From contig JACQVI010000079.1 of the NCBI GenBank assembly GCA_016209795.1, forward strand, positions 421 through 64,420: a DNA stretch of 64,000 nt. The letters run 5' to 3'. Shown piece by piece: positions 34,532 to 48,017 of the stretch. The DNA is from Ignavibacteriota bacterium. GTDB lineage: Bacteria > Bacteroidota > Ignavibacteria > UBA10030 > SZUA-254. The stretch's first letter is position 1. Each line of letters starts with the position of its first letter. The notes beneath the pieces are model-generated. The model saw only the letters and a program-made list of their open reading frames with translations, did no database searches and was not told the origin of the DNA. The translations under genes and the position numbers were made by a program.

Positions 34532-35365
34532 ATGACCCCAAATGTACGTCGTAACGAATATGACGTTCACGATTTTGAAACAGAAGTCATCAAGCGAAGT
34601 TTTGACATTCCGGTGCTCGTCGATTTTTGGGCTGAGTGGTGTGCACCATGTCGAATACTCAGTCCAATTTTAGAACGATTAGCCGAACAGAATAAAGACA
34701 AATGGGTTCTTGCAAAAGTTAACACGGAAGAGCATCAGGATGTAGCTGTACAATATGGAGTTCAGGGAATTCCGAATGTCAAGCTGTTCTTTGAAGGGAA
34801 AATCATCGGCGAGTTTGTTGGTGCGCTGCCGGAGTATGTCGTTGTCCAGTGGCTTCGTGAGAACGTTCCCAGCAGACATCGAACGAAAATCGAGCTTGCG
34901 AAAACATTGATTGCAGACCAACGGTTATCCGATGCTCAGCAGCTTCTGGAAAATATACTCACGGTAGAAGTGGAGAATCAGGAAGTCAAAGTTCTCCTCG
35001 CCCGAGTGCATCTGTTTACTGATCCGACCAAAGCAGCAGACTTGCTCAGGGACGTGGATGATCCACGACATGCCGAGCTTTCTGAGGCTCTCAGGACGTT
35101 GACTCGACTGTTTGATCTTCATAATCGCCTGGACGAGCTGCCTGAAGGGCTTTCCAAACAGACATATCTCAATGCTATTGCCGATATCCGTGCCCAAAAG
35201 TTTGACGCAGCGCTGGAGAAGCTCATCGAGATCATCCGCACTGACCGGTACTACGATGACGATGGGTCGCGCAAAGCGTGTATTGCGATTTTTAAGTTGT
35301 TGGGGGAAGAGCATCCCACGACACAAAAGTACAGAAGAGATTTCAGCAGCGCGCTCTACGTGTGA
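34532..35365 (+). CDS. thioredoxin-TPR protein (YbbN/CnoX-like)
   Basis: WAEWCAPC active site followed by a TPR-like C-terminal half. Confidence 0.8.
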   Translation: MTPNVRRNEYDVHDFETEVIKRSFDIPVLVDFWAEWCAPCRILSPILERLAEQNKDKWVLAKVNTEEHQDVAVQYGVQGIPNVKLFFEGKIIGEFVGALPEYVVVQWLRENVPSRHRTKIELAKTLIADQRLSDAQQLLENILTVEVENQEVKVLLARVHLFTDPTKAADLLRDVDDPRHAELSEALRTLTRLFDLHNRLDELPEGLSKQTYLNAIADIRAQKFDAALEKLIEIIRTDRYYDDDGSRKACIAIFKLLGEEHPTTQKYRRDFSSALYV

Positions 35366-35570
35366 GTTGACATTCATTCCACAAGCGAGTATATTTCTAA
35401 CAGTAAAGTAAGACCAATGAGAGCTGTGAATGGTCGGTTTGTATCTTGCCTCTATAAAAGAAATAAACGCAATAGCTCGTTAACACAATAGTTAGAAGGC
35501 GGCATTTTGCTCCAGCACAGAAGATTCGACACCAGATGATCAATCAATTACAAGCGTAAATCAAGCATTC

Positions 35571-37205
35571 ATGATGACACAGACATATATTCCGAGAGCG
35601 AACGGATGGAGGCAAACGTTACTGATATTTTGGTTTGTTTCTATCTTTCTTGAGTCCGAAGGAGCCCGTTCTCAGGACATCATCGTTGAAGAACACCCGA
35701 ATCATTACATACTTCTTGTAGATGCTTCCGGTTCAATGCTGTCCACAAAGGCGAAGGCTAATGCGCTTCGAAATATTTTGTTTGATACACTAAGCAATCG
35801 ACTTTTTCGTTTGGGTTTCGGCGAGAATATACCGCCTCTTGATCTCAATCGAGATTTCATCACCATGCATACTTTCGGAATCGTGGAGAAGGACTCTTCG
35901 CCAGCATATTTGCGACTCAAGGGTTATGATTTCCAGAAAGACTTTGTTCATACCATCATCTTGAGGGAGAGGTTAGTATCACCCCAGTACTTAACAGCAC
36001 GATTGTATCCGAATCGTTTTTTCGAATTGACAGTTCTTGGCTGGGCGAAGCAGTTAGGATTATCGGCATCCCGACCAGATTCACTAAATACGACCGCAAA
36101 CCGTACGTTCCTCATATTCATTCACGATGCAGAAACCAACGAAAGCTCTCTTGCTGAGGAGCTAATAATGGCCGAACGATGGTCCAACTCAGCAAGTTTT
36201 GAGCAAGCAAAGAGAATTGTCCGTGATATTGACCGCGACTACGGGTTTTATGATGCACAGGGGGAAAGACGGTGGGCTTGGCAACTGAGGTATCATTTGC
36301 CCAATCAACCAAGTCAAACCATATATCTCGAAGCGTACGAAGTTATTGCAGCTAATCTCCTGAAACTTCAAGGCGAGTCAAGATCAATACGTCCCTTCGC
36401 CGATATGAGGGTCAGATGGGTCAACGAGAAAAAAACGAATTCAGAAGGGATATTGAGCTACTCATTTGAAGAAACTTTTTTGACTTGGATTAACTCATTT
36501 CATCCGACCGAGATGACTGTTCACTTCAATTTCACGCGCAATACGACCTCATCTGTACAGCCATTTATCCCCTCAGCTGAGACTCCCTTTAAGTATTCTG
36601 ACACTCTCTCCTGTGATACGAGGGAGGTTAATATCGCATTCCAGGTTCCACTGCATCAATTGGACGCGTTGCTGGGAACGAGAAATATGCAGTTCGTCGT
36701 TGACCATTCACTCACGTTGCCTAAGCCTTTCCGATGCACGATAGAGTTCTTCCTGTTCACGTTGTCCACTGCCACAATTTCAATACTGCTGTTGACCACC
36801 ATAATTTATACAATCTACTTCAGATTCTTCGCAACCCATGTATTTCTTGAACTCCCTGGACTTGTGAAACCAATTCGAATTCGACGGAATACAGTCCTGA
36901 CCCAGGCAATCACCATTGCACCACAAACAAACTTAGAAGTCTTCTCCGTGCTCTTACCTCCCCAATTGATACAGAGACTTTTCTACCGACATGCTTCGTT
37001 ACTTATAAAGACCACCAATCAAGGTCTCTGCAAATGGCAAGATGAGGGAAGCGATTCAACAGTGATTAGACTACCACATAATAAGAAGCGAGTTAATGCT
37101 CTCTGGACTAATCTACCAAGCGGGCCAACAGTTGTTGCTTTGCTTTTTCGGCAGGCCCATTCTGAGTCACAACTCCACGTCGAATATCCAAAAGGAACTA
37201 ATTGA
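35571..37205 (+). CDS. membrane-anchored vWA-like domain protein
   Basis: N-terminal signal/anchor. MIDAS-like YILLVDASGSM (DxSxS). One strong TM helix (FFLFTLSTATISILLLTTIIYTIYF) before a ~130-aa C-terminal tail. Confidence 0.45.
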   Translation: MMTQTYIPRANGWRQTLLIFWFVSIFLESEGARSQDIIVEEHPNHYILLVDASGSMLSTKAKANALRNILFDTLSNRLFRLGFGENIPPLDLNRDFITMHTFGIVEKDSSPAYLRLKGYDFQKDFVHTIILRERLVSPQYLTARLYPNRFFELTVLGWAKQLGLSASRPDSLNTTANRTFLIFIHDAETNESSLAEELIMAERWSNSASFEQAKRIVRDIDRDYGFYDAQGERRWAWQLRYHLPNQPSQTIYLEAYEVIAANLLKLQGESRSIRPFADMRVRWVNEKKTNSEGILSYSFEETFLTWINSFHPTEMTVHFNFTRNTTSSVQPFIPSAETPFKYSDTLSCDTREVNIAFQVPLHQLDALLGTRNMQFVVDHSLTLPKPFRCTIEFFLFTLSTATISILLLTTIIYTIYFRFFATHVFLELPGLVKPIRIRRNTVLTQAITIAPQTNLEVFSVLLPPQLIQRLFYRHASLLIKTTNQGLCKWQDEGSDSTVIRLPHNKKRVNALWTNLPSGPTVVALLFRQAHSESQLHVEYPKGTN

Positions 37206-37220
37206 CATTAGAGGGATTAT

Positions 37221-39278
37221 ATGCAGGAAGCCAATTCAGACAAAACGGAAAAGCAAAGGACAAACGAAATCTCCTACTATGTAGCGCTCGATTTGGGGTC
37301 TGAGTCAATGTCTGCTTACTTTGAAGAGAAGGACTATTCTAAGTTCGATATGGTGGACTTGCAAGCACATGCAAAGACCTTGCTCGGACAAGATCCTGAA
37401 TACCTGATGGAAGAAGTTGAGAATCTTCAGAAGAAAAGTCCACGCCTGAGAACACGGATATTCATTCGCGACAGGAAACAGCCTTCAAGCCTATCGCTCA
37501 ATCATGCAAAATTAGATTTCATCCATAAGAACGGAACGAAACTCCCTGGTTACGATGAATCGCTCTTTGGTCTTTTCGCTGCACCGAACACATGGGTACT
37601 TGGAGGAATGATGCCCAATCCTAAAATCCCATTCCAATATGGTGCCCAAGAAATCATCCCGGAAGTGGAACCACAAGGCGGTGGAATAAAGGTGAAGCAT
37701 AACCCCGAGGTACTGATACAGCATCTCACTGCGCAGATTGTGCGTAATCTTGTGCTGTTGTCTCCCGAATTGCAAAACGTCGACCCTTCAAGCATTGAGC
37801 TTTTGCTGACAGTTCCGAATGTATATAGCTTACCTCATGTGGAAAGCCTCTGCTCATTCCTGCAAACGAACAGTGGCGTGAAAACCGTAAGGGCAGTAAG
37901 CGAGTCAGATGCTGCTGTGTACTTCGTGCTTGACCTTCCTCGAAATACCGATCTCACGGAGGTCAGCGAATTCAAAGGCAGAATCAGGAACAGGAAGGAC
38001 AAGGATTACTTGAGAATTGTTTCTATTGACATTGGACGTGGCACTACCGACTTGAGTGCTATTGAAGTGAAGCCACCACTCAACTCTCAAAGCCCACAAA
38101 ATCTGGTACGCTTGGCAGTCGTTGGCAAGAGTGATGGAGGAAATCGACTGAGTTACATTTTAGCTGAATACTTCAACAAACAGTTTATACATTTTCGACC
38201 AAGGATCGAATCGACCCTGGGAAAGAGTGTGCGATTCTCATTCCTTGAAAAGGAGCCGACCATTCCGACACCTTGGTCCGAGGCCATAGTAGCCTTAGAA
38301 ACCCTGATAGAAAGAATCAAGCGTTCTATCACAGAAAAACATTATGTGGGTTTGCAATCTGACCAGACAATTACAAACAGAATTCTCTCCAAGATCTGTC
38401 AACTAACTGATCCGAATTGGCAAGACAATAACGCTGACAAGTTCCAGGCACTTTTGGATGAGCTAACTGACCAAGGTTTTCTATCTCTGCCAGATTATTT
38501 ACCGCGGGGACTGCGCAGATGGTGGTGGCAAATTTTTTACAAGTCAAATAGGCTGAAACAGATACAATGTGACCTATCTATTGCAATTGAGAAATATGTG
38601 CAAGAAAATGTCTCAGAACTTCTTTCGCAATTAGTTCAAATGTACGCGGCTCGAGATGCTCGCTATACTTCCAAGGTTAGGTCTGCAGGCAAGGACCTCT
38701 TCGATCATAGGTGCACATTCGTAGTTATCTTGGGACAAGCAGCTCAGCTCGCTCCTATCCGATCGGCGATTCGCAGTAAGTTGTCTGAATTTGACTTCCC
38801 ATGGGAAACGAACATGCTTTGCTTGGACGGTCCGATTGCCAAGGAGGCTTGTTGTAAGGGTGCAGTTAGCTACGCCCGTTCGAAAGCAAAACTGACCAAT
38901 GATGACGAACTGATGGGTACATTTGGTATGCTTTCCCGTGTCACTCCGTTTGGGTCTGAGCAAAGTTTCAAAATGTTCAACATGTCAGAAATAAATAGCG
39001 CTAGATCAAGCAGTCAGGTAAGTTTCCCCGCTAAGTCCGAGGCCCTTCTATTCTATTCGTCACGTTTGTATACCAACGGTGAATCGCCAGGCCTGTTTGA
39101 TGGCTATACGGCGATCATCAAGACATTTGAAGGCAGCGAGTTTACATTCAGATATGACCGGCCAAATCGGAAGATTTATGTGAACGATATTCTCGTGGAT
39201 AAGCTTGCAACATACGGAGACATTCAAGAGTCAATCTACTATAAGGTCTGGCCGGAAGTGTTAAAACCGATGCAGTAG
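37221..39278 (+). CDS. Hsp70/actin-fold (ASKHA) ATPase, cytoplasmic, divergent
   Basis: Phosphate-1-like VALDLGSESMSAYF, connect-1-like VSESDAAVYFVLD and phosphate-2-like IVSIDIGRGTTDLSAIEV. No TM segments. Confidence 0.55.
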   Translation: MQEANSDKTEKQRTNEISYYVALDLGSESMSAYFEEKDYSKFDMVDLQAHAKTLLGQDPEYLMEEVENLQKKSPRLRTRIFIRDRKQPSSLSLNHAKLDFIHKNGTKLPGYDESLFGLFAAPNTWVLGGMMPNPKIPFQYGAQEIIPEVEPQGGGIKVKHNPEVLIQHLTAQIVRNLVLLSPELQNVDPSSIELLLTVPNVYSLPHVESLCSFLQTNSGVKTVRAVSESDAAVYFVLDLPRNTDLTEVSEFKGRIRNRKDKDYLRIVSIDIGRGTTDLSAIEVKPPLNSQSPQNLVRLAVVGKSDGGNRLSYILAEYFNKQFIHFRPRIESTLGKSVRFSFLEKEPTIPTPWSEAIVALETLIERIKRSITEKHYVGLQSDQTITNRILSKICQLTDPNWQDNNADKFQALLDELTDQGFLSLPDYLPRGLRRWWWQIFYKSNRLKQIQCDLSIAIEKYVQENVSELLSQLVQMYAARDARYTSKVRSAGKDLFDHRCTFVVILGQAAQLAPIRSAIRSKLSEFDFPWETNMLCLDGPIAKEACCKGAVSYARSKAKLTNDDELMGTFGMLSRVTPFGSEQSFKMFNMSEINSARSSSQVSFPAKSEALLFYSSRLYTNGESPGLFDGYTAIIKTFEGSEFTFRYDRPNRKIYVNDILVDKLATYGDIQESIYYKVWPEVLKPMQ

Positions 39279-39294
39279 CAGAAAGGAGTTCGAG

Positions 39295-41220
39295 ATGCAA
39301 ATCACCAAGCTGGTAGTATTAATTCTATTCTTGGCTATCGGGAACGTTTGTAGAGCGAGTCAAGACGAAGGCAGCCCCATCCTCTACAATTTTATGAGCG
39401 AGACCAATGTTTATCTCTGGGTCTCTCGAGCTGACCAACAACCAACAATCGCAACCATAAACAACGGGAAGTGGGACATCCCGAATACAGCACTGAATAA
39501 TCCTCGATGGAAGCAGCTGATTTCTTCGATTGTAAGCGGCGATTTTTCCTACCAAGATAAGTGGGCAAAATTCCTTGAGAAACTGCGCCTTGAGTATCCT
39601 GACACTACGTGGGCTAAACCGAGATTCCCGAACATTGAGATGTATGTTCGCATTCGTAGTAAGGATTCTGTTGCTGTTCAGATTCTGATGAGGCCTGACT
39701 TCTATGCCGAGTATGCTTTTGTCAAGAAGGAGACATGGGCAAAATCTGCAGATATCCCGACAGACAAAATATTGAACCTTCCGTACCGAGATCCGAATCT
39801 AACGAACATCTTCAACAAGGAAGCAACCGCACACAAGTGGGTGGATTCATGGCACAAATGGATAGAGTCCCGGATCGAGGAGCAAGACTCTATTCGTTCC
39901 ATAATGTATGCGGATAAAGATGGTAAATCCCTTTGGATCATCCAGGAACGGGTCACAGAAAGCAACTGGGTCTCCCGCTCAATGCGAAAGATGCCACCTA
40001 AACCAATTCTCATTGAAAAAACAGACGTTGTTGAAGTGAAGAAGACGGATGTTCTCATGTTACTTATTGTTGCTGCGTTTTCATTACTCTTAGGATTCGT
40101 TTCGCCGTGGCGCCTTTCTTTTATCCAACGTCTCATACCACTCCTATATCGAAGGAAGAAGCCCCAGATTCCAAACGTCGATGATGTCTCTTCGGGGCAT
40201 TTTGAGCAGCGTCTCACTGGGGTAAACAGGACTCGTCCAATTGTCGCAGAGAACAAGATTCAGAAGATCATATCCTCACAAGCTAACATAGAAAAGCTTT
40301 ACCAAATTTTCACAACGTATGAGAAACGCCAAGAGACCTTTTTGATTAATCTCCACGAGCAATTGGAGTCATTGTTCACCGAACTCCACACTAACACCTT
40401 GGAAGAATATGGTGTAGATGGACTTCAGTCTGATGAAGCTAAGCTGCTTCTAAGCTTAGGAACCTCCGCCAAAGAATGTCTTAGGAAATTGGATAGCTTT
40501 ATTGCCCAGGATCGTTTCCCAGCCAATCTGTTTTCGAATGATGCACATGCAACCTGGCTAAACGAGATTCCAGTGGTGTTGGTTTCGCTTAACGATCAAT
40601 TATCTAAAGCAAAACATCAATCCTCAGCGACCAGAGACAAGTTATTAGCGACTTCAGAAGAACTGAACCAAACGAAGAACCAGCTGCGAGAATTACAGGA
40701 TGTGAATAACCAGCTCGTTACTAAAGTCAGTAAGCTCGAACAGGAATATGGTAACATTCGCCGCCAACAGGAAGAATTGAATAGCCGCATGGAAGACCTA
40801 CACAAGGTAGAAAGCCTTGCTGTCTATTTAGAACAAGGCGAAGGGTATGTGCTCGCCCAGACGGATAACCCTGAGCAAGCTGCTATCGTCAGCTTTCTCT
40901 CCACGTACGCACTATTTCATCTTTGGGGGGCTACACTTAACAAACATTCAGAGAAAAGAGAAGTCATGCTTGCTAACATCTACTCTATTGCAGATAAGCT
41001 CAGATCATATCGTGGTTTTGATGTTGTTCTCAATGAGGTTGATACGACTGCACGAGCAGTGAATGAACTAGAGACATTACTGGGGAAGTCCCAAGAGAAA
41101 CATCATATTGCGCATCTGTTCCAAGTCTTACTGAGACGGCTAAGAGATATCAGTTCAGTTGACTTAGCTCCATATTACATAGGTCTTGATAAGTATGGGA
41201 AGTTATTCAAAGTAGCATGA
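39295..41220 (+). CDS. bitopic membrane protein with periplasmic N-domain and long cytoplasmic coiled-coil
   Basis: Signal peptide. Single TM (VLMLLIVAAFSLLLGFVSPW). Heptad-rich segment KAKHQSSATRDKLLATSEELNQTKNQLRELQDVNNQLVTKVSKLEQEYGNIRRQQEELNSRMEDL. Confidence 0.45.
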   Translation: MQITKLVVLILFLAIGNVCRASQDEGSPILYNFMSETNVYLWVSRADQQPTIATINNGKWDIPNTALNNPRWKQLISSIVSGDFSYQDKWAKFLEKLRLEYPDTTWAKPRFPNIEMYVRIRSKDSVAVQILMRPDFYAEYAFVKKETWAKSADIPTDKILNLPYRDPNLTNIFNKEATAHKWVDSWHKWIESRIEEQDSIRSIMYADKDGKSLWIIQERVTESNWVSRSMRKMPPKPILIEKTDVVEVKKTDVLMLLIVAAFSLLLGFVSPWRLSFIQRLIPLLYRRKKPQIPNVDDVSSGHFEQRLTGVNRTRPIVAENKIQKIISSQANIEKLYQIFTTYEKRQETFLINLHEQLESLFTELHTNTLEEYGVDGLQSDEAKLLLSLGTSAKECLRKLDSFIAQDRFPANLFSNDAHATWLNEIPVVLVSLNDQLSKAKHQSSATRDKLLATSEELNQTKNQLRELQDVNNQLVTKVSKLEQEYGNIRRQQEELNSRMEDLHKVESLAVYLEQGEGYVLAQTDNPEQAAIVSFLSTYALFHLWGATLNKHSEKREVMLANIYSIADKLRSYRGFDVVLNEVDTTARAVNELETLLGKSQEKHHIAHLFQVLLRRLRDISSVDLAPYYIGLDKYGKLFKVA

Positions 41221-41252
41221 TAATAGTTTATTAGATTTAACAAGAACTGGGA

Positions 41253-44200
41253 ATGGAATTCTTCATCATACCTCAGCTTACTTTGACTTTTGCGTTAGCT
41301 CTTCTGATATCGAGAAGTAGCCAAGAGACATTAGTCGGAGTATCAAAGTACTTCTTCATAGCATATTCTTGGTTCACGTGCGGATTACTCGTTTGGATGA
41401 TAACTTATTTCATTGGATTGGGCGACAACGGGACACCAAGGTTGTCGCTGGAGGAGCAACGACGAATTGTACACTTGGGTTACTATGTAGATCCGGATAG
41501 TTCAATTACTTTCAGTGGAGAGGGTTTTGAGAATTCCTTTCCTCACCAAGTCCTAAGTAACAACGATCGGATAAGACTAACACCTCTCTTTGGCCCTAGT
41601 ACTCTCAGAGCGACGAAATGGTTGGTTGAACATGAGATTCGCAGCCAACCCTTGAGACTCGATGATTCATGCGTAAACATCTCTCAACAAATGTGGCTGG
41701 CTCCAGGAGATACCTTCTCTGCTTATATCTACAGGGAGAGCGGCCCGCTTTTTTTCCGTCTCAGATGGGTAGTTGACACAACGTGGTGGGGTAGAGTCCA
41801 AAACAAATACTATTATACACAAGGTGTCTTCAGAAATGGGCTGGCAAATTACGAAATACGTGATACGGTGTTTTCAAAAAGCGCGCTGAGAGAAGGCCGC
41901 AAGCTGAGCGTAATGATGAGTTTGTGGGCTCAAAGAGAAAAAGAAGTATCTCAGCGTATTAACTCAACTTTATGGAATATCTTTCGAGGCATTACTTTCG
42001 TACGCGAGAAAAGAAATGACATTCTATCCAGGATAGGCCTGCTCATTGCTGATTCTTTGCTAGAAGAGTCCAATATTACGTTATACAAGAACTCTTCACG
42101 CCTTACCCGAGAAAGTGCCAACAGGGTAATAGAAATTCCTTTTTCTACCCATGTCGAGTGTGGGCTTGGGGCAAGCGATAAGCTCTCCCTTGTTCTTACA
42201 GATACGTTATCAAACGATAGCTACTTGGGCAATGTCCTCGAAGTCCGGTTTGAAAAACCCTATCGCTGGCCGCTGCCTCCAAAGCCTGACCAATATTTTA
42301 TCACAACCACCACCGATGATTTCATCCCTAGAGATGGCTATCGGATAAGCCTCGGACAATCAACAAATCCACTGTACGCGAAGTGTGTTCTGAATCGGGC
42401 AAGAGACACCATCGAAATAACTGATGGCAGGAGTGTCAGAGCTTTTCCATTGGGCGGTGTTATTAGGCTAGGGGACTTCCAACGTGGAGCAATCCTCTCT
42501 CTAGGGTCTGTAAACACTTTCGCAACTCTCCCATTGATTAGTAGCCAGCTGTACAATATTGGAGTTACAGCAACCTTGTTTCTTTTGATTTTGACTCTAT
42601 TAGTTACTTGGCTTCATTTTACAGAGAAGTACTCCCGTCCGAGGCTCGATGTTGGTTGGGTCGTGGTTTGGGGAGTAATGCTCACGATACTTACAGTGCG
42701 CCTTGTCTTATCGTATCGGGCAAGCTTATTGGCTCCAGAAGATGCGACACCGCGTGAGGTATTGGAAGTCTTTAGAAAGAGCCTCGATCTGAGCCTACTT
42801 GGCCTGCTCTTGATCCCATTATTGTTCATAGTCACACGTTGGTGTTGCCGAGATCACATAGAAGGTTTGTTTAGCAAAACCATTGCCGTTCTCAGGAAAC
42901 ATAAAACCATTGTATTACTGACATCGGCCATTGGGGCAGTTGCAATCTTCTCATGGCACATCCATTTCCAAAAACTCATTCAGGAAGCCTCTGAAGTCGA
43001 ATGGTTTCATTGGATCATGATTGGGGTATTACTTTTCGTCTGCAGTCTAGTTTGGATTCTGATGCGCAAGTGGAGAATCTACCTTGGGTGGGCCGCTGTT
43101 ATCCTTGCGTGGGTCCTTGTCGCCCATTTTTTTGGTATTGGTGAATCATTCTTCGGCCGCGTGAATATCGCAACGCACGTCTTCATGATAGTAGCCCTTC
43201 TCTCAGTGTCCAAACGAATCGTCGCTAATGCCAGCGTTATCGATTATACCATGGGCTTTTTGATTATCGTCGTTGGAATAGTGGCGGTCGTGGTTATCAT
43301 AGGTGATCGGGGGTTCATAATCTATACTCCGTCTTTGGTAACATTCCCGTTGTTGTGTCTTTTCTGGAATCGCCAATCAATCAACAACATCGTCTCTGAC
43401 GGACGTATCTACATCAGTTCACGATTACCTTTGGTTTTAGCTGGAATCATCAGTTTCGTTCTGCTCGTGGCGCTTCTCTCACAACTCGAGTGGAGGAGCC
43501 AAGTAATAAATCCTCGTAATCTTGAATCGCTCCATTACCGTTTAGCGAGCTTCACTGACACAGAAGAGTCTATTCTTCTCGCTCGTGAGGAAGATAGAAA
43601 CTTCAATCTGGATATGCTGCTCAGAAACTCGCATCAAGATTGGCAGATGAAGTTGTATGCGTCCGAAGGTGCTGATAGCGCGAGAGGATACGGAAAAGCG
43701 CCTCCGTCTGACATAGGAATGACTTATGCGACCTCATCTTCAGATTGCGTTTTCTCAACTTACTTGCTTGCAGAACACGGCTCCTTTGCGGCGCTGTCAG
43801 TTGTATTGTTGTATTTAACCCTAGCTATTGTTGTTTGCTTTGCTGCCTTGCATTTTCCAATCGACTACCAGCATCGTCTACTAACGTTGATCGCAATTGC
43901 ATCTTTCTTCGTGGCTAATTGTTTGTACATGGCAAGTACCAATGTTGGCTTGGCTCCCTTCACGGGTCAAAACATACCGTTACTTTCACTTCACTCTGGA
44001 TCAGATCTTGTGCAAGGATGTTTGCTTTTGCTTCTTCTCTCAGTTCTTCTATCCAAAGGGGTACATACGAGCACAGGTGTTGCACTTCCGGGGAACCCCA
44101 TCGTACGCAAGGTCGTTTTCTTTGTGATCATCCTGATCATTTTCTGGTTTGTGGCTCTCACCTTCTCTATCATTAATGTTGCTGCTAAAGACGATTATAG

Positions 44201-46466
44201 AAAAGACCATGACTTCCGCAGCACCTACCCCGGCCTTAAAGAATCTCTGCCTGACATTGATAACCCGGAGCGTGCCACACGCTGGAAATTGGTCGGTGAG
44301 AATTTGTTGCGACGCGCGGGCAGCTTCGCCATTCCGGGAATCGATGCTCTCATTGCGCAATTTAACGAAAAAGCCAACAAGTACGATGCTAACAATAACC
44401 TGATTTATCTCGCAGTCCACCCGACGAAAGGAGATACGGTCGTCGCAGTCAACCGAAATTATTTTAGACTTCGTTCTCCGTTCAGAATCGATTCGATCTG
44501 GACCGGAATAATCCTTTCGAGGTCGGATCCTGCCGCACCTACTATCAGTGGATTGGGGGGATCGTTCAGAATCAGTCTCCGCGATAGAGGACATGCTGAG
44601 AAGATTTCTTTGGGCGAGTCACCACCATTAATTACGACAAGGGCAGTGCAGATCACTGATCCAGGACGTAACGATGCATTCTTTGAGTTGATCCGCAGAG
44701 GTGAGGAGCTATTCCTTGAACGAAAAATAGGAGACTGGGAGATTTCGGTTAACGGGTCTAGGGTGACCTCACCGGTGAGGTTAAATCCATTCGATATTAT
44801 TTCCTTGGCAAGAAAGCAAAGACCATCCCACCAAGTACAATCTCGTTATAGGCTGACCACATTTTACTACTTAGGAATACAACATCCCATCTTCGCTTTT
44901 ACACAATGGAGAAATGGCAGGACCCGTCGGCTGTTTCCAGAAGGCGAAGTGTTCCCGCTCTCGTACGCTTTGGCGAAAAGCATGGACGAACTCCCACACC
45001 GACCTGATACCTTGGCTATTTCGCTCAACTTGTCACTACACACTTCTCTACAAAATGAGATAGCTGCGTTTGCAAGCAGATATCCACAGTACTCAGATAA
45101 TGAACCTCTCTCCACTCGCAAGCTCGCAGTGACATTAATCGATGCTTTTTCAGGCAAATTGCTTGCCATTCCATCGTGGCCCTTCATTAGTCCAAACCAA
45201 TTCGATTTTGAGGAAAAACTAGTACGGGCAACACCTACTGAGCAAATGCGGCTGGTCAACAATCATAATTTCACGAATCATCCCATTGGTTCAACTATCA
45301 AACCGCTCGTGTTGGCTTCATTAGCAACGATGTTGTGGCCAGAGGTTGACGTGTCGAGGATCTCTGTTTCAAATATTGCGGATAATACCACAGGTCACGA
45401 AACTGGAAACCGTGAGTACCGACATCCTCATGTGCGAGTTGGAAGTCATGAGCTAGAAGCGATTTGGGATTGCAATAGTGAACAGTCCTCGATCAACGCC
45501 CATGATTTTATCATCCATTCGAGAGACTATTACATAGGCATGATAGGGGTCCTCGGAATGCTCACGGATAGGAGTGACTGGACCAGAGTACTCAACCAGG
45601 AAGGAACAGGAAACAGGATAATATATGGTAACAGAACATACTCAATCAATATGTACAACGCCCGCATGTCGCCCTTTGTTTGGGACGGTACTCGAATTAC
45701 TGGTCTCCGTACTCAATCGAGCATGGACAGTACCTTCCTTTTTAAGGGGCTTTCTTCCGCCTTCGGGGCAGGTCTCTCAACCAGTTACAAATTAATGTTG
45801 AATCGATCTGTTGCTGACTTCTTCCCTTCCTTGCATAGGATGAATCTGCCCGTCATTGATAGCTTAGAGTCAATGTATCTAGATAACGTCGTTCCCGAGC
45901 CAGTATTACTTCACTTTGGAGAAACTTCCCAACTTCTGCGTCGCGATTTGATTACTTTCTTACTCGGGGCAGGCCAGTGCCGATGGAACAACGTAATCAT
46001 GGCCCAATCTGCTGCCCGTGTTGCGACTGGTAGAGCAGTAACTGCAACCTTGGAGTTAGATAATGTGGAAGAAAATCCGCGCGCGTTTCCTCTCTTACAC
46101 CCACCAATGGATAATAGACAATGGCGCTATGACAACCTGATCACACCTATGAGGCTTGTTGGAGTGCGAGGTACAGCTGATTCATTGAGGAATCTAGTTC
46201 AATCACCATTCGTTGCCATTTACAAAACTGGCACAATTGAAGAGAGGGAACGTGGACCGGAAAGCGAGTGGCTTCTTTTTGTAGTCGGTAGATTACAGAA
46301 TGACAGTTTCGTTCCTGGTGAAACAGTAGCGGGCTTCTTCTATATGCAGGAGTCAAAAGACCGATACGGGCCTATGAAGAAGTTCGAACTTGCACGCCCG
46401 ATTATCACTCGTGTCGTTGATTATCTTAAGCGCGTTTCAACAGTGTCACAACATTACGATGAATGA
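41253..46466 (+). CDS. giant (1737 aa) SEDS (FtsW/RodA/SpoVE-like) glycosyltransferase fused to a class B penicillin-binding protein transpeptidase, with a ~420-aa N-terminal extracytoplasmic extension and extra TM helices
   Basis: SEDS blocks: SSSDCVFSTYLLAEHGSFAALSVVLLYL (compare SDFIFsvigEELGfiG; D831 at nt 43743) and GLAPFTGQNIPLLSLHSGSDL (compare GllPvTGvPLPFiSYGGSS). Transpeptidase motifs: SxxK = STIKP (S1347, nt 45291), SxN = SIN and KTG = KTGT (K1658, nt 46224). Confidence 0.7.
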   Translation: MEFFIIPQLTLTFALALLISRSSQETLVGVSKYFFIAYSWFTCGLLVWMITYFIGLGDNGTPRLSLEEQRRIVHLGYYVDPDSSITFSGEGFENSFPHQVLSNNDRIRLTPLFGPSTLRATKWLVEHEIRSQPLRLDDSCVNISQQMWLAPGDTFSAYIYRESGPLFFRLRWVVDTTWWGRVQNKYYYTQGVFRNGLANYEIRDTVFSKSALREGRKLSVMMSLWAQREKEVSQRINSTLWNIFRGITFVREKRNDILSRIGLLIADSLLEESNITLYKNSSRLTRESANRVIEIPFSTHVECGLGASDKLSLVLTDTLSNDSYLGNVLEVRFEKPYRWPLPPKPDQYFITTTTDDFIPRDGYRISLGQSTNPLYAKCVLNRARDTIEITDGRSVRAFPLGGVIRLGDFQRGAILSLGSVNTFATLPLISSQLYNIGVTATLFLLILTLLVTWLHFTEKYSRPRLDVGWVVVWGVMLTILTVRLVLSYRASLLAPEDATPREVLEVFRKSLDLSLLGLLLIPLLFIVTRWCCRDHIEGLFSKTIAVLRKHKTIVLLTSAIGAVAIFSWHIHFQKLIQEASEVEWFHWIMIGVLLFVCSLVWILMRKWRIYLGWAAVILAWVLVAHFFGIGESFFGRVNIATHVFMIVALLSVSKRIVANASVIDYTMGFLIIVVGIVAVVVIIGDRGFIIYTPSLVTFPLLCLFWNRQSINNIVSDGRIYISSRLPLVLAGIISFVLLVALLSQLEWRSQVINPRNLESLHYRLASFTDTEESILLAREEDRNFNLDMLLRNSHQDWQMKLYASEGADSARGYGKAPPSDIGMTYATSSSDCVFSTYLLAEHGSFAALSVVLLYLTLAIVVCFAALHFPIDYQHRLLTLIAIASFFVANCLYMASTNVGLAPFTGQNIPLLSLHSGSDLVQGCLLLLLLSVLLSKGVHTSTGVALPGNPIVRKVVFFVIILIIFWFVALTFSIINVAAKDDYRKDHDFRSTYPGLKESLPDIDNPERATRWKLVGENLLRRAGSFAIPGIDALIAQFNEKANKYDANNNLIYLAVHPTKGDTVVAVNRNYFRLRSPFRIDSIWTGIILSRSDPAAPTISGLGGSFRISLRDRGHAEKISLGESPPLITTRAVQITDPGRNDAFFELIRRGEELFLERKIGDWEISVNGSRVTSPVRLNPFDIISLARKQRPSHQVQSRYRLTTFYYLGIQHPIFAFTQWRNGRTRRLFPEGEVFPLSYALAKSMDELPHRPDTLAISLNLSLHTSLQNEIAAFASRYPQYSDNEPLSTRKLAVTLIDAFSGKLLAIPSWPFISPNQFDFEEKLVRATPTEQMRLVNNHNFTNHPIGSTIKPLVLASLATMLWPEVDVSRISVSNIADNTTGHETGNREYRHPHVRVGSHELEAIWDCNSEQSSINAHDFIIHSRDYYIGMIGVLGMLTDRSDWTRVLNQEGTGNRIIYGNRTYSINMYNARMSPFVWDGTRITGLRTQSSMDSTFLFKGLSSAFGAGLSTSYKLMLNRSVADFFPSLHRMNLPVIDSLESMYLDNVVPEPVLLHFGETSQLLRRDLITFLLGAGQCRWNNVIMAQSAARVATGRAVTATLELDNVEENPRAFPLLHPPMDNRQWRYDNLITPMRLVGVRGTADSLRNLVQSPFVAIYKTGTIEERERGPESEWLLFVVGRLQNDSFVPGETVAGFFYMQESKDRYGPMKKFELARPIITRVVDYLKRVSTVSQHYDE

Positions 46467-48017
46467 ACTACTAAGCAAAACGCCGCCTAACAACAGCAAA
46501 AAACGATTCGGGCAAAAAGCGCCCTCACCCAAATTGCGGCACTCTCGCAATCTTCCCACTCCCCACAGAATCAAACTAACCGCCAATCCCGGATACATCG
46601 GCTCAATCCCAAGGGGATAATTTCCTGTTGCTCCATTCACATGTCCAGCAATAAGCCACCCCAGAGATGTTAGCCAGCCGAGCAGCATCGAGAGAAATGC
46701 ATAGCGTGCCGAGATTTTCAATCGCTCAAAGTAACTTGCCATTAACGGCACAAGCAAGCCTGGAATCACAACCGTCCCAATCGTGTACCAGAGTTTGATG
46801 ACGCTGGGGATGGCAAGTCCGAGAAGAGCAGAAAATACGAAAGAGACAATCAAACCGAGTTGCGTATACTTTGTTAAAGACTGGTTTGAGTTTGCAGGTT
46901 CGAGATGTGAGTAACCCTCTCCCCTCTTGTTCCCCTCTCCCAAATTTGGGAGAGGGGATGCAGGGGTGAGGGTATTACTCAATCCTCTAACCTCTAACCG
47001 CATCGCTACATCTCTTCCCAACGTTTGTGCTGAGACAAATGCTAAAGTGTTCAACGTCGACATAATCGTTGCGAGCATGCCGACGTAAAACAATCCTTTG
47101 GCAACGGGTGGAAGAATGGTTTCCGCAAGCATTGGGTATGCTGCGATTGGATTCTGAAGATTTGGAAGTGCGGCACGAGCATACAGTCCTGCCGTTGCTG
47201 TCATACAATCAAAGATGAACCAGAAGATAATTGAAACGAGAATCCCCTTTTGCGCCGTCGTGCCGTCCTTTGCTGCGTAGCACCGTTGATGAAATGCAGG
47301 ATCGACTAACGTCCAGAGTGCTATGAAAAACCAGACAAGGATGTACTGGATGGAATGCCCGCCATGCCATGCCAAGTGCAGCGGTGGGAGGCTCGATTGC
47401 AGATACTCAAATCCTCCGTAACTCGTAATGCAAAAAGGAATAATGATAAGAAAGCCAAGGAACATCAGGATGAATTCAAGAACATCAGTCTGGACATCGG
47501 AACGAAATCCACCAAAATACAAGTAGGGAAGTATTACAATCGCAGTTACTATGACGCTCAGGAGCATACTCCATCCAAAAAGCATTTGGAGAAAAACGCT
47601 GAGCATCAGAATATATGGTGCCGGCGTCATCAGAATGAACGTGAGAACTGAGCCAAGCAGTGCTGTTTTGTTGTCGTAGGCGTGTGCGAGTTTATCCGGG
47701 ATCGAGTACAGGTTTGTTGCTCGGATTTTCTTTGCAAGGAAGAATGCGAAGACTGCAGCGAAAACATAATAAGGCAGCCCCTGCACAACCCAATTTGAGA
47801 TACCATGCCGGTATGAAAACTCTCCCACACCTAAAATACCGCCATACCATGTTGAGACCAGCGTCATCACAAACACAGGAAGCGTCAGCGAGCGTCCCGC
47901 TAAGAGATAATCTTCTTCGGACCTGGTGGTTTTCCTTGCTGATCGAAAGCCGATATAGAGAACTGCCGCAAAGTAAAAGAGAATAATGAAGATGTCGATG
48001 AAGGAGAGATTAATCAT
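46446..48017 (-). CDS. sodium:solute symporter (SSS family) transporter, probable vitamin (thiamine-related) uptake
   Basis: 523 aa with about 13 TM helices and SSS-type N-terminal helices. It is the last gene of the riboswitch-TonB-receptor-TPK operon. It contains an in-frame palindromic insertion (see repeat feature). Confidence 0.75.
   Translation of the reverse strand: MINLSFIDIFIILFYFAAVLYIGFRSARKTTRSEEDYLLAGRSLTLPVFVMTLVSTWYGGILGVGEFSYRHGISNWVVQGLPYYVFAAVFAFFLAKKIRATNLYSIPDKLAHAYDNKTALLGSVLTFILMTPAPYILMLSVFLQMLFGWSMLLSVIVTAIVILPYLYFGGFRSDVQTDVLEFILMFLGFLIIIPFCITSYGGFEYLQSSLPPLHLAWHGGHSIQYILVWFFIALWTLVDPAFHQRCYAAKDGTTAQKGILVSIIFWFIFDCMTATAGLYARAALPNLQNPIAAYPMLAETILPPVAKGLFYVGMLATIMSTLNTLAFVSAQTLGRDVAMRLEVRGLSNTLTPASPLPNLGEGNKRGEGYSHLEPANSNQSLTKYTQLGLIVSFVFSALLGLAIPSVIKLWYTIGTVVIPGLLVPLMASYFERLKISARYAFLSMLLGWLTSLGWLIAGHVNGATGNYPLGIEPMYPGLAVSLILWGVGRLRECRNLGEGAFCPNRFLLLLGGVLLSSSFIVML
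46915..46990. repeat. nested GA/CT-rich palindromic element inserted in-frame in the SSS transporter CDS
   Basis: Perfect 10-bp stem cccctctccc-aaattt-gggagagggg, flanked by an outer imperfect stem gagtaaccctc...gagggtattactc. It translates to the loop insertion NLGEGNKRGEGYSHLEP. Confidence 0.4.

What the first reader, a model, noticed from the sequence alone, without database searches (positions are those of the whole stretch)
35571..46466. Four-gene operon resembling an orphan divisome/elongasome: vWA membrane protein, Hsp70/actin-fold ATPase, coiled-coil bitopic protein and a giant SEDS-bPBP fusion
All four genes are on the same strand with 16-33 bp gaps and a 205-bp promoter-sized gap upstream. 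The last gene combines a SEDS peptidoglycan glycosyltransferase core with a class B PBP transpeptidase domain that retains all three catalytic motifs. The upstream cytoplasmic protein has the Hsp70/actin phosphate-binding loops. Two bitopic proteins with cytoplasmic tails, one vWA and one coiled-coil, sit between them. This parallels FtsA + FtsQLB/N + FtsW-FtsI and MreB + MreC/D + RodA-PBP2, but built from non-orthologous, highly divergent parts. That suggests a third, specialised PG-synthesis machine (compare SpoVE/SpoVD) not described for this architecture.
Basis: partly seen in the sequence, partly recalled or inferred. Interest (0 to 1): 0.88.

Follow-up and report, generated by a model that had tools for sequence, protein, structure and literature searches.

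The report
Hsp70-controlled giant cell-wall synthase operon
A four-gene operon encodes a very large, highly divergent fusion of the two enzymes that build bacterial cell wall (a SEDS polymerase and a class-B penicillin-binding transpeptidase), always found with a membrane-tethered Hsp70-like ATPase and a coiled-coil partner; this combination has not been described and points to a new way of controlling wall synthesis.

Summary
**Observation.** It is confirmed. Four co-directional ORFs (35571-46466) are separated by gaps of 15, 16 and 32 bp. A 205-bp upstream gap holds a near-consensus promoter.

**Domain calls.**
- **g2.** It is a full Hsp70-like protein (top 50 PDB fold hits are all Hsp70s), not FtsA- or MreB-like.
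- **g1.** The vWA call rests only on a MIDAS-like motif; every profile test failed.

**Family and linkage.** The g4 family is large (1123 cluster representatives). In 8 of 8 independently seeded loci, g2 and/or g3 lie directly upstream.

**Variable partners.** The g1-tail/g2/g3 core also occurs without g4. There it is fused to, or sits next to, TIR, protein kinase, HEAT plus NACHT, or polysaccharide deacetylase. It often lies in mobile or defence-island contexts.

**Best reading.** This is an accessory cell-wall synthase gated by an Hsp70-type switch spanning the inner membrane. It is probably not a third housekeeping divisome or elongasome.

**Novelty.** New variant of a known kind, with a possibly new regulatory class.

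The parts
35367..35395 (+). sigma-70-like promoter candidate (TTGACA-17-TATATT) in the 205-bp gap upstream of g1
   Evidence: 11/12 match, the best in 35200-46700. The total count of promoter-like sites is not above the shuffle expectation, so this is only suggestive. Sequence read.
35571..37205 (+). g1: bitopic membrane protein. It has an N-terminal signal/anchor (aa 14-30), a periplasmic domain of about 360 aa (aa 31-393) with a MIDAS-like DASGS motif (aa 51-55, nt 35721-35735), a TM segment (aa 394-421, nt 36750-36833), and a conserved cytoplasmic tail (aa 422-544, nt 36834-37202).
   Evidence: ORF. D51, S53, S55, T98 and D186 are conserved in family alignments A5 and A9. TM segment and K/R-rich flank. 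In about a quarter of g2 relatives g1 is fused to the N-terminus of g2, which places the tail in the cytoplasm. The tail occurs alone as a 167-aa protein in L030. There is no VWA profile hit.
37221..39278 (+). [quoted passage not shown] Motifs: DLGSES (aa 24-29), PNPK (132-135), TVPNVYS (197-203), ESDA (228-231), DIGRGTTDLS (270-279), GQAAQLAP (505-512), KEACCKG (541-547).
   Evidence: AlphaFold model pLDDT 90.4, pTM 0.91. In Foldseek against the PDB, the top 50 hits are all Hsp70, Hsp110, BiP or DnaK, E about 1e-13, with about 700 aligned columns. The motifs are invariant in 47 relatives. The DnaK block aligns with the profile. Pfam HSP70 reaches only E=1e-3 in 2 of 4 orthologues.
39295..41220 (+). 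g3: bitopic protein. It has a signal/anchor (aa 1-21), a periplasmic domain (aa 22-247), a TM segment (aa 248-271, nt 40036-40107), a cytoplasmic coiled coil (about aa 425-510), and a conserved C-terminal helical domain (aa 511-641, nt 40825-41217).
   Evidence: TM segments. Only generic coiled-coil matches. The C-terminal domain is conserved in 19 g3-like proteins (A8). g3-like proteins in g4-less loci keep only the cytoplasmic part.
41253..46466 (+). g4: 1737-aa polytopic fusion protein (SEDS glycosyltransferase core plus class-B-PBP-like transpeptidase) with an extra N-terminal periplasmic domain.
   Evidence: See the sub-features below.
41412..42557 (+). g4 N-terminal beta-rich domain (aa 54-435) after two TM helices (aa 2-53). 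It is predicted to be periplasmic and contains an FHA-type beta-sandwich.
42558..44054 (+). g4 SEDS-fold membrane core (aa 436-934). Includes the GD685 loop (nt 43302-43316), the ECL4-like loop (aa 745-832), the catalytic-Asp motif SSSD831CVF (nt 43734-43754), E841-H-G, and FTGQNIPL (aa 903-910).
44097..44186 (+). g4 TM helix (aa 949-978) that corresponds to the N-terminal membrane anchor of a class B PBP.
   Evidence: AlphaFold helix 949-978, hydrophobicity, and topology parity.
44187..45122 (+). g4 periplasmic linker or 'pedestal' region (aa 979-1290). It has an FHA-like sequence pattern (aa ~1100-1190) and a class-B-PBP-type W-R-N-G...R-R-L-F-P-E-G motif (aa 1219-1232, nt 44907-44948).
   Evidence: W1219, N1221 and G1222 are about 90% conserved; R1226 and P1229 are 17/27. 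This region was not modelled. PBP_dimer (PF03717) was not detected.
45123..46463 (+). g4 transpeptidase-like domain (aa ~1291-1737). Motifs: S1347-T-I-K1350 (nt 45291-45302), S1423-R-D (nt 45519-45527), K1658-T-G-T (nt 46224-46235).
   Evidence: S1347, K1350, S1423 and KTGT are 27/27. Position 1425 is N in 24/27, and D in the window. TIGR03423 pbp2_mrdA gives E 1.6e-4 on the window protein. The top 7 profile-versus-PDB hits are all class B PBPs, E 0.2-1. PF00905 hits in 11 of 27 relatives (best 2e-6), and two of them map to window aa 1561-1672.

Best explanation
The operon encodes a self-contained, accessory peptidoglycan synthase under the control of an Hsp70-type ATPase switch that spans the inner membrane.

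**Shown**
- g4 joins a SEDS-fold glycan polymerase core to a class-B-PBP-like transpeptidase in one polypeptide. Both catalytic centres are conserved across a large, divergent family.
- g4 carries an extra N-terminal beta-rich (FHA-like) domain.
- g2 is a full Hsp70-like protein with intact ATP-binding and hydrolysis motifs.
- g1 and g3 are bitopic membrane proteins. Their cytoplasmic parts (the g1 tail, and the g3 coiled coil plus C-terminal domain) always accompany g2.
- g1 is frequently fused to g2.
- The order g(1)-g2-g3-g4 is conserved across phyla.

**Inferred**
- g4 has almost no cytoplasmic mass. The cytoplasmic ATPase therefore probably reaches it through the TM and periplasmic parts of g1 and g3.
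- ATP-driven conformational cycling of g2, scaffolded by the g3 coiled coil and tethered by the g1 tail, would switch g4 polymerase and transpeptidase activity on or off. The large periplasmic domains of g1, g3 and the g4 N-domain would act as the sensing or contact surfaces.
- The same g1-tail/g2/g3 core is wired elsewhere to TIR, Ser/Thr kinase, NACHT+HEAT or polysaccharide-deacetylase domains. The loci are patchily distributed and often in mobile or defence islands. The most likely role is therefore conditional envelope reinforcement, repair or remodelling in response to a cue such as stress or attack, not routine growth or division.
For: - **Catalytic residues:** SEDS Asp/Glu and the PBP SxxK, SxN and KTGT motifs are conserved in 27 of 27 or 24 of 27 relatives.
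- **Bridging Pfam hits:** PF00905 in 11 of 27 relatives and PF01098 in 4 of 27. Weak direct hits on the window protein go to FtsW and PBP2.
- **Hsp70 fold of g2:**. Motifs invariant in 47 sequences.
- **Family size:** 1123 representatives at E<=1e-3, nearly all 1650-1950 aa.
- **Linkage:** 8 of 8 informative g4-seeded loci carry g2 and/or g3 upstream. Of g2-seeded loci, 9 have g4 and 4 do not.
- **g1-g2 fusions:**
- **Variant outputs:** TIR-g2; HEAT-g2 with NACHT and a g1-tail-only protein; Pkinase-g2; g2-deacetylase.
- **Topology:**
- **Island contexts:** integrase, IS elements, SmpB, DndB, ArdC, ParB, ParE.
Against: - No biochemical or expression data exist, and no complex was modelled, so contacts among g1, g2, g3 and g4 are inferred only from linkage and fusion.
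- In the window, the operon has the same GC content as its flanks and no mobile-element genes nearby. Here it looks like a resident chromosomal locus.
- The window protein has SxD instead of SxN.
- PADLOC finds nothing for g1, g2 or g4, and nothing is found on viral contigs.
- The FHA-like fold of the N-domain would usually suggest a cytoplasmic phosphothreonine reader. That conflicts with the predicted periplasmic location unless only the fold is shared.
- I could not check whether the host genomes also carry canonical RodA/FtsW pairs.
Confidence: 0.45

Rival explanations
1. The operon is a third, specialised morphogenetic machine, comparable to a divisome or elongasome, or to SpoVE/SpoVD. 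g2 plays the FtsA/MreB role, and g1 and g3 play the FtsQLB/FtsN or MreC/D role. It would build wall at a particular site or developmental stage.
For: The architecture is parallel: a cytoplasmic ASKHA ATPase, bitopic partners and a SEDS-bPBP pair. Gene order is strictly conserved. Catalytic residues are conserved. In the window the locus is chromosomal and matches its flanks in composition.
Against: g2 is a chaperone-type Hsp70 with a C-terminal beta domain, not an actin-like filament former. The g3 coiled coil is cytoplasmic. The g2/g3 core works with TIR, kinase and NACHT partners where g4 is absent. Distribution is patchy across Ignavibacteriota, Acidobacteriota, Aminicenantes, Armatimonadota, Rhodothermales and KSB1, and several loci are in mobile or defence islands. 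In one genome, g4 is broken into three ORFs (L006).
Confidence: 0.2
2. g1, g2 and g3 form a dedicated chaperone or assembly system. Its job would be to fold, insert or stabilise the giant 16-TM g4 protein, with no signalling role.
For: g2 is Hsp70-like with intact ATPase motifs. g4 is unusually large and polytopic. Operon linkage is tight.
Against: The same core occurs without g4, next to small soluble partners: a TIR fusion, a kinase fusion and NACHT. g1 and g3 carry large conserved periplasmic domains that a cytoplasmic folding helper would not need. No J-domain or GrpE-like partner was detected.
Confidence: 0.12
3. g4 is mainly a sensor rather than a synthase. Its SEDS and PBP-like domains would bind lipid II, muropeptides or beta-lactams, as the BlaR1 or PASTA sensors do. 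It would then report to the Hsp70 switch, whose real output lies elsewhere.
For: In the variant loci the recognisable output domains (TIR, kinase) are fused to g2 itself. PBP-like domains are used as sensors in BlaR1 and MecR1, which is established knowledge and is also mentioned in PMC12516126. g4 has extra periplasmic beta-sandwich domains.
Against: Both catalytic centres, including the SEDS Asp that a pure sensor would not need, are conserved across the whole family. The window operon contains no other candidate effector. g4 has almost no cytoplasmic surface from which to signal.
Confidence: 0.13

Closest known systems
RodA-PBP2 and FtsW-FtsI (SEDS-class B PBP peptidoglycan synthase pairs)
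   Different: The two enzymes are one polypeptide of 1737 aa, compared with about 370 plus about 600 aa. Identity is about 14-18%, and there are no Pfam or NCBIfam hits at threshold. There are five or six extra TM helices and a 380-aa N-terminal periplasmic beta-rich domain. PBP_dimer is not detectable. The partners are Hsp70-like and coiled-coil proteins, not MreBCD/RodZ or FtsA/QLB/N.
Chimeric SEDS-bPBP fusion proteins found through InterPro (e.g. the Rhodococcus jostii 947-aa GTase-pedestal-TPase protein; PMC12516126)
   Same: The domain order is the same: SEDS glycosyltransferase, then pedestal, then transpeptidase, in one protein. They are likewise proposed to be bifunctional class B synthases.
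   Different: Those 117 proteins are about 900-950 aa, are recognisable by Pfam and InterPro, and sit next to mreB or rlmH. The present family is about twice that size and invisible to Pfam. It has an added N-terminal domain and a conserved Hsp70-like/coiled-coil operon. The survey does not mention it.
Hsp70 chaperones (DnaK, HscC, YegD) and the Hsp70-like NBD/SBD modules of conflict systems (CoCoNuT CnuD, PMC11090510; GTPase-centric systems, PMC7159879)
   Same: g2 has a full Hsp70-like fold. As in CoCoNuT type III and related systems, the Hsp70-like unit is combined with coiled coils, HEAT repeats, kinases and putative vWA components.
   Different: g2 keeps strong ATPase motifs, whereas CnuD motifs are described as degenerate. 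It has no McrBC, GTPase or nuclease partner. It is tethered to the membrane through g1. Its commonest partner is a peptidoglycan synthase. Pfam HSP70 is not reached at threshold.
FtsA-FtsN/FtsQLB-FtsWI activation pathway of the divisome
   Same: The logic is the same: a cytoplasmic ASKHA ATPase communicates through bitopic proteins with a SEDS-bPBP synthase.
   Different: There is no orthology. The ATPase is of chaperone type. The coiled coil is on the cytoplasmic side. The system is accessory and has interchangeable outputs.

Membership tests
SEDS (FtsW/RodA/SpoVE, PF01098) | Ten-helix SEDS membrane fold | tested here: met
SEDS (FtsW/RodA/SpoVE, PF01098) | Match to the family profile at the curated threshold | tested here: not met
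   No PF01098 hit for the window protein or its three closest relatives. phmmer to FtsW gives E 0.036. Four of 27 distant relatives do hit PF01098, best E 9.4e-10, so homology is supported only transitively.
SEDS (FtsW/RodA/SpoVE, PF01098) | Essential acidic residue in the large extracytoplasmic loop just before TM8, and a conserved periplasmic D-x-G loop | tested here: met
   D831 aligns with the FtsW HTDFVF motif and is D in 24 and E in 3 of 27 relatives. D685 is 26/27. E841, G905 and S915 are 27/27.
SEDS (FtsW/RodA/SpoVE, PF01098) | Lipid II glycosyltransferase activity | not testable with these tools
   Requires biochemistry.
Class B penicillin-binding protein (PF00905 + PF03717) | SxxK, SxN and KTG active-site motifs in order | tested here: met
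   S1347-T-I-K, S1423-R-D and K1658-T-G-T. S, K, S and KTGT are 27/27. The third residue of SxN is N in 24/27 and D in the window.
Class B penicillin-binding protein (PF00905 + PF03717) | Match to the transpeptidase profile at the curated threshold | tested here: inconclusive
   The window protein has no PF00905 hit. TIGR03423 gives 20 bits against a cut-off of 455. Profile-versus-PDB hits are all bPBPs, but at E 0.2-1. Eleven of 27 relatives hit PF00905, best 2e-6. One reaches 21.9 bits against a cut-off of 22.1 and maps to window aa 1561-1672.
Class B penicillin-binding protein (PF00905 + PF03717) | N-terminal TM anchor followed by a non-catalytic pedestal (PBP_dimer) with the RxYPxG motif | tested here: inconclusive
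   The anchor helix 949-978 is present. An RRLFPEG motif lies 115 aa before SxxK and is conserved in 17/27. PF03717 was never detected, and this region was not modelled.
Hsp70 (PF00012) | Actin-like ATPase nucleotide-binding domain plus a C-terminal beta-rich domain, i.e. the Hsp70 fold | tested here: met
   The top 50 Foldseek hits in the PDB are all Hsp70, Hsp110, BiP or DnaK, E 1e-13 to 4e-10, with about 700 aligned columns. Model pLDDT 90.4.
Hsp70 (PF00012) | Match to the family profile at the curated threshold | tested here: not met
   No PF00012 hit for the window protein. E 1e-3 in 2 of 4 orthologues. DnaK fragments at E 0.13-0.4 with the 47-sequence profile.
Hsp70 (PF00012) | Catalytic and phosphate-binding residues (DnaK D8/K70/E171/D194/T199/D201 equivalents) | tested here: met
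   D24, K135, E228, D270, T275 and D277 are invariant in 47 sequences. The block DIGRGTTDLS...GKSxGGN aligns with DnaK DLGGGTFDIS...GDTHLGGE. The residue equivalences rest on motif alignment and my knowledge of DnaK.
Hsp70 (PF00012) | Cognate J-domain or nucleotide-exchange partner | tested here: not met
   No DnaJ, GrpE or BAG domain in g1, g3 or the neighbouring genes.
von Willebrand factor A domain (PF00092/PF13519) | Profile match or alpha/beta vWA fold | tested here: not met
   No VWA hit for g1 or for any of 20 family members. No hit to PDB sequences.
von Willebrand factor A domain (PF00092/PF13519) | MIDAS motif DxSxS...T...D | tested here: inconclusive
   D51 is invariant in A5, and S53 and S55 are at least 90% there (all three invariant in A9). 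T98 and D186 are invariant in A5. A short motif alone does not establish the domain.
Divisome/elongasome-type morphogenetic machine | Actin-like, membrane-associated polymerising ATPase (FtsA or MreB) | tested here: not met
   All of the top 50 structural matches of g2 are Hsp70-family chaperones, and no FtsA or MreB appears among them.
Divisome/elongasome-type morphogenetic machine | Broad vertical conservation and a housekeeping gene context (dcw or mre clusters) | tested here: not met
   Flanks are unrelated and differ in every locus. Several loci sit in mobile or defence islands.
Known anti-phage defence systems (PADLOC-DB v2) | Match of a component to a catalogued defence protein model | tested here: not met
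   No hits for g1, g2 or g4. g3 gives only coiled-coil-type weak matches (LmuB, JetC).
FHA domain | FHA beta-sandwich fold | tested here: met
FHA domain | Phosphothreonine-binding residues (G-R ... S-x-x-H ... N-G) and cytoplasmic location | tested here: not met
   No conserved S-x-x-H. The domain is predicted to be periplasmic. No Pfam FHA hit.

The most novel reading that the evidence does not exclude
The g1-tail/g2/g3 set may define a previously unrecognised class of signalling or immune systems. It would be centred on an Hsp70-type ATPase and span the cell envelope, with interchangeable outputs: a peptidoglycan synthase, a TIR NADase, a Ser/Thr kinase, a NACHT NTPase or a polysaccharide deacetylase. 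In its commonest form, de novo cell-wall synthesis by a giant SEDS-bPBP enzyme would be the inducible effector. That would make wall reinforcement or repair a programmed response to attack by phage, lytic enzymes or competitors.
Probability: 0.3. Interest if true: 0.9.

Novelty: new variant of a known kind. Interest (0 to 1): 0.74.

Why it matters
SEDS-bPBP synthases are the core wall-building machines of bacteria and are major antibiotic targets. How they are switched on is an active question, and so far it has been answered only for the FtsA/FtsN/FtsQLB and MreBCD/RodZ pathways.

This finding adds a large family (more than 1000 clusters at 50% identity) of fused, highly divergent synthases that standard annotation misses completely. 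These enzymes are invariably coupled to an Hsp70-like ATPase, which is a control principle not known for peptidoglycan synthesis.

The same ATPase core is also wired to TIR, kinase and NACHT domains. That links cell-wall synthesis to the modular logic of bacterial immune and conflict systems.

If the model holds, it offers three things:
- a single-polypeptide SEDS-bPBP enzyme for biochemistry;
- a new regulatory mechanism;
- possibly an inducible wall-repair or defence response.

Tried and rejected
- **Direct profile searches.** Pfam, NCBIfam and PADLOC on the four proteins gave nothing at threshold. phmmer and profiles against PDB sequences gave only weak, though directionally consistent, hits.
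- **First homolog search for g4.** It returned only 4 proteins, which I briefly read as extreme rarity. The exhaustive search found 1123, so the low count was an artefact of the word filter.
- **vWA call for g1.** Pfam on 20 family members, a profile against the PDB and a homolog search with the periplasmic domain gave no support. I could not model g1 or g3 because only two structure predictions are allowed.
- **g3 as an Hsp70 co-chaperone.** I looked for GrpE, J or BAG domains in the g3 C-terminal domain. Only generic coiled-coil matches appeared.
- **SrfB.** The hit for g2 (E 0.058, 24 residues) is only the shared phosphate-2 motif.
- **Phage carriage.** No relatives of g4 or g2 in viral contigs.
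- **Recent horizontal acquisition in this genome.** No tRNA, no compositional shift and housekeeping flanks.
- **One failed alignment.** The 63-sequence alignment failed and was replaced by a 32-sequence one.
Full report
**1. Observation**

The four ORFs are at exactly the stated coordinates on the + strand:

| Gene | Coordinates | Length |
|---|---|---|
| g1 | 35571-37205 | 544 aa |
| g2 | 37221-39278 | 685 aa |
| g3 | 39295-41220 | 641 aa |
| g4 | 41253-46466 | 1737 aa |

- The gaps between genes are 15, 16 and 32 bp, and the gap upstream of g1 is 205 bp.
- That upstream gap contains the best sigma-70-type match in the region, TTGACA-17-TATATT at 35367-35395. The total number of promoter-like matches in the region is not above chance.
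- The operon ends against a convergent symporter gene.
- The flanking genes are unrelated housekeeping genes: a thioredoxin-TPR protein, DinB, a PAS protein, a thiamine pyrophosphokinase and a TonB-dependent receptor.
- The window contains no tRNA, and the operon's GC content matches its flanks.
- The window comes from an Ignavibacteriae metagenome-assembled genome (locus tags HY707_04675 to HY707_04690).

**2.

- Pfam gives no hit at threshold for any of the four proteins. The only entries are a 24-residue SrfB match for g2 and generic coiled-coil matches for g3.
- NCBIfam gives 20 bits to pbp2_mrdA for g4 (cut-off 455) and 15 bits to an Hsp70-like 'molecular chaperone' model for g2.
- PADLOC gives nothing for g1, g2 or g4.
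- Against PDB sequences, the best g4 hit is FtsW at E 0.036. It aligns SSDCVF with the FtsW HTDFVF motif.

These hits point the right way, but they are not evidence on their own.

**3. Size of the families**

- A word-filtered search found only four g4 relatives.
- An exhaustive HMMER search with a profile of g4 residues 625-1737 found 1123 cluster representatives at E<=1e-3. Of these, 581 are at E<=1e-10 and 141 at E<=1e-30. Nearly all are 1650-1950 aa. The family is therefore large and simply unannotated.
- The g2 family has at least 88 members in the filtered search. About a quarter of them are proteins of about 1250 aa that turn out to be g1-g2 fusions.

**4. What g4 is**

*Model.* An AlphaFold model of residues 1-1000, built from 32 sequences, has pLDDT 83.5 and pTM 0.84. 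It shows two N-terminal TM helices, a beta-rich domain (aa 54-435), and then a helical membrane bundle.

*SEDS fold.*
- The only confident Foldseek hits are the same five SEDS chains.

*Conservation.* Counts are across 27 divergent relatives (16-23% identity to the window protein):

| Residue or motif | Conservation |
|---|---|
| SEDS Asp D831 | D in 24, E in 3 |
| E841, G905, S915 | 27/27 |
| Periplasmic loop D685 | 26/27 |
| S1347, K1350, S1423, K1658-T-G-T | 27/27 |
| Position 1425 (third residue of SxN) | N in 24/27; D in the window |

*Pedestal motif.* A class-B-PBP-type motif, W-R-N-G...R-R-L-F-P-E-G, lies about 115 residues before SxxK.

*Bridging to Pfam.* Eleven of these 27 relatives reach Pfam Transpeptidase (best E 2e-6) and four reach FTSW_RODA_SPOVE (best E 9.4e-10). 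Two of the Transpeptidase hits map to window residues 1561-1672.

*Profile against the PDB.* A four-sequence profile hits only class B PBPs, although weakly.

*Conclusion.* g4 is a true, highly divergent SEDS-bPBP fusion, and both active sites are under purifying selection.

*Topology.* Loop charges and SEDS helix parity agree. They place the ECL4-like loop, the FTGQNxPL loop, the PBP part and the N-terminal beta-rich domain in the periplasm. That leaves g4 with almost no cytoplasmic mass.

**5. What g2 is**

- The AlphaFold model (47 sequences) has pLDDT 90.4 and pTM 0.91.
- All of the top 50 PDB matches are Hsp70, Hsp110, BiP or DnaK, at E about 1e-13 and aligned over about 700 columns, so the match includes the C-terminal beta domain.
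- The phosphate-1, phosphate-2 and adenosine motifs, and the equivalents of DnaK K70, E171 and T199, are invariant across the family.
- The Hsp70-specific block DLGGGTFDxS...GDTHLGGxDFD aligns with DIGRGTTDLS...GKSxGGNxLSY.

g2 is therefore a chaperone-type Hsp70 relative that is probably an active ATPase. It is not an FtsA- or MreB-like cytoskeletal protein.

**6. What g1 and g3 are**

*g1.*
- It has an N-terminal anchor, a periplasmic domain of about 360 aa, one TM segment and a cytoplasmic tail of about 120 aa.
- The fusions to g2 confirm that the tail is cytoplasmic.
- The family conserves a D-x-S-x-S...T...D pattern.
- No VWA profile hit appears in g1 or in any of 20 relatives. No PDB sequence matches. 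The last homolog search was uninformative.
- The vWA call therefore remains an unverified motif-level suggestion.

*g3.*
- It has a periplasmic domain of about 225 aa, one TM segment, a cytoplasmic coiled coil and a conserved C-terminal helical domain (QGQRxFL...YSL...AMxxNL...LRD...PFYF).
- That C-terminal domain has no Pfam match.

**7. Neighbourhood conservation**

*Loci seeded with g4 from metagenomes.* Every locus with enough upstream sequence carries g2 and/or g3 directly upstream in the same order. That is 8 of 8: L012, L013, L014, L015, L018, L021, L024 and L028.

*Loci seeded with g2.*

| Outcome | Count | Loci |
|---|---|---|
| g4 present | 9 | L004, L005, L006, L009, L010, L029, L033, L034, L035 |
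| g4 absent | 4 | L007, L011, L030, L031 |
| Truncated contig | 2 | L008, L032 |

*Hosts.* They include Acidobacteriota, Aminicenantes, Armatimonadota (Fimbriimonas, Abditibacterium), Rhodothermales and KSB1.

**8. What changes the interpretation**

The cytoplasmic core (g1 tail, g2, and the g3 coiled coil with its C-domain) also occurs without g4 and with quite different partners:

| Locus | Arrangement |
|---|---|
| L032 | g1-like protein, then TIR-g2 fusion, then g3-like protein |
| L030 | NACHT NTPase, then HEAT-g2 fusion, then g3-like protein, then a 167-aa protein matching only the g1 TM and tail |
| L004 | A second g2 copy with an N-terminal Ser/Thr kinase domain (E 4e-48) |
| L031 | g2 fused C-terminally to a polysaccharide deacetylase (E 4e-34) |
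| L007 | g1, g2 and four tandem g3-like paralogues, with no g4 |

Several g4-containing loci lie in mobile or defence-island settings:
- IS1595 elements, an integrase and RadC next to smpB (L033);
- DndB, UvrD, ArdC and ParB (L034);
- ParE, a Y1 transposase and T6SS genes (L029).

Hsp70-like NBD/SBD units combined with HEAT repeats, coiled coils, vWA proteins and kinases are known from predicted conflict systems (CoCoNuT type III, PMC11090510; GTPase-centric systems, PMC7159879). Neither paper links them to SEDS or PBP enzymes.

**9. Mechanism**

*Shown.* A bifunctional SEDS-bPBP enzyme, an ATPase-competent Hsp70-like protein and two bitopic partners form a conserved unit, and the g1-g2 fusions tie g1 to g2.

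*Inferred.*
- g4 exposes almost nothing to the cytoplasm. The ATPase must therefore act through the TM and periplasmic parts of g1 and g3.
- The core recurs with TIR, kinase and NACHT outputs. It is therefore best viewed as a generic ATP-driven switch, with g4 as its commonest output.
- I favour a conditional, signal-gated wall synthase used for reinforcement, repair or remodelling (confidence about 0.45).

*Rivals.*
- A dedicated assembly chaperone for g4 (0.12).
- g4 acting as a sensor rather than a synthase (0.13).

**10. Comparison with what is known, and novelty**

- SEDS-bPBP pairs are textbook.
- Fused 'chimeric' SEDS-bPBP proteins of about 900-950 aa have been catalogued through InterPro (PMC12516126).
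- The present family is about twice that size and invisible to Pfam. It carries an added periplasmic FHA-like domain and a conserved Hsp70-like/coiled-coil/bitopic operon.
- I found no description of it in four literature searches.
- I rate it a new variant of a known kind. There is a real chance (about 0.3) that the Hsp70-centred switch with interchangeable outputs is a new class of system.

**11. Limits**

- There are no experimental data, and no multimer modelling was done.
- g1, g3 and g4 residues 1001-1737 were not modelled, because only two structure predictions are allowed.
- I could not check whether host genomes carry canonical SEDS-bPBP pairs.
- The neighbourhood census covers about 25 loci, not the whole family.

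Noticed in passing
window 41253-41396: The public annotation of g4 (HY707_04690, 1689 aa) starts 48 codons downstream of the ATG at 41253. The extra 48 residues form TM helix 1 and part of TM helix 2. They are conserved in homologues (M1 and L9 invariant in A1), so the longer ORF is probably correct.
   Followed up: partly
window 46446-46466: The 3' end of g4 overlaps the 3' end of the convergent sodium:solute symporter gene (46446-48017, minus strand) by 21 bp. Terminator-like hairpins lie just downstream, on the minus strand, at 46481-46534.
   Followed up: no
L003 10966-11760; L035 19346-21696: A PMT_2 (GT-C family) glycosyltransferase gene lies directly downstream of g4 in two unrelated loci. 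In L035 a PIG-L deacetylase follows it. These may be optional extra envelope-modifying partners.
   Followed up: no
L002 655-1419 and 15581-17602: A DUF4062 protein is encoded upstream of the system. A 2026 preprint describes DUF4062 as a TIR-like NADase of the 'Swarozyc' defence system. An SLT plus LysM lytic transglycosylase gene converges on, and overlaps, the end of g4.
   Followed up: no
L007 12376-18085: A Rhodothermales locus has g1, g2 and four tandem g3-like paralogues but no g4. One paralogue is bitopic and three are soluble. META-domain and BP74_N proteins follow.
   Followed up: partly
L004 3-12055: An Aminicenantes locus has two g2 copies flanking g3 and g4. The second copy is fused to an N-terminal Ser/Thr protein kinase domain (Pkinase, E 3.7e-48).
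   Followed up: partly
L006 14451-19725: In one Acidobacteriota genome, g4 is split into three consecutive ORFs of 260, 1026 and 476 aa. This is either a pseudogene or a set of assembly frameshifts.
   Followed up: no
L033 605-19468: The system sits in an apparent genomic island next to smpB, with IS1595 and DDE transposases, RadC, a PD-(D/E)xK protein and a phage-type integrase. The g4-like gene is divergently oriented here.
   Followed up: no
window g4 aa 1100-1190 (nt 44550-44822): A second FHA-like sequence pattern (...NG...L..GD...) lies in the periplasmic linker between the PBP anchor helix and the transpeptidase domain. G1168 is invariant among the closest relatives (A1, four sequences), and the same NG...L..GD pattern shows in the consensus of the 27-sequence alignment A6. 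This region was not modelled.
   Followed up: no
method note: For this long, TM-rich protein, the word-filtered homolog search returned 4 relatives while the exhaustive profile search returned 1123. Rarity estimates from the filtered tool can be badly misleading.
   Followed up: yes
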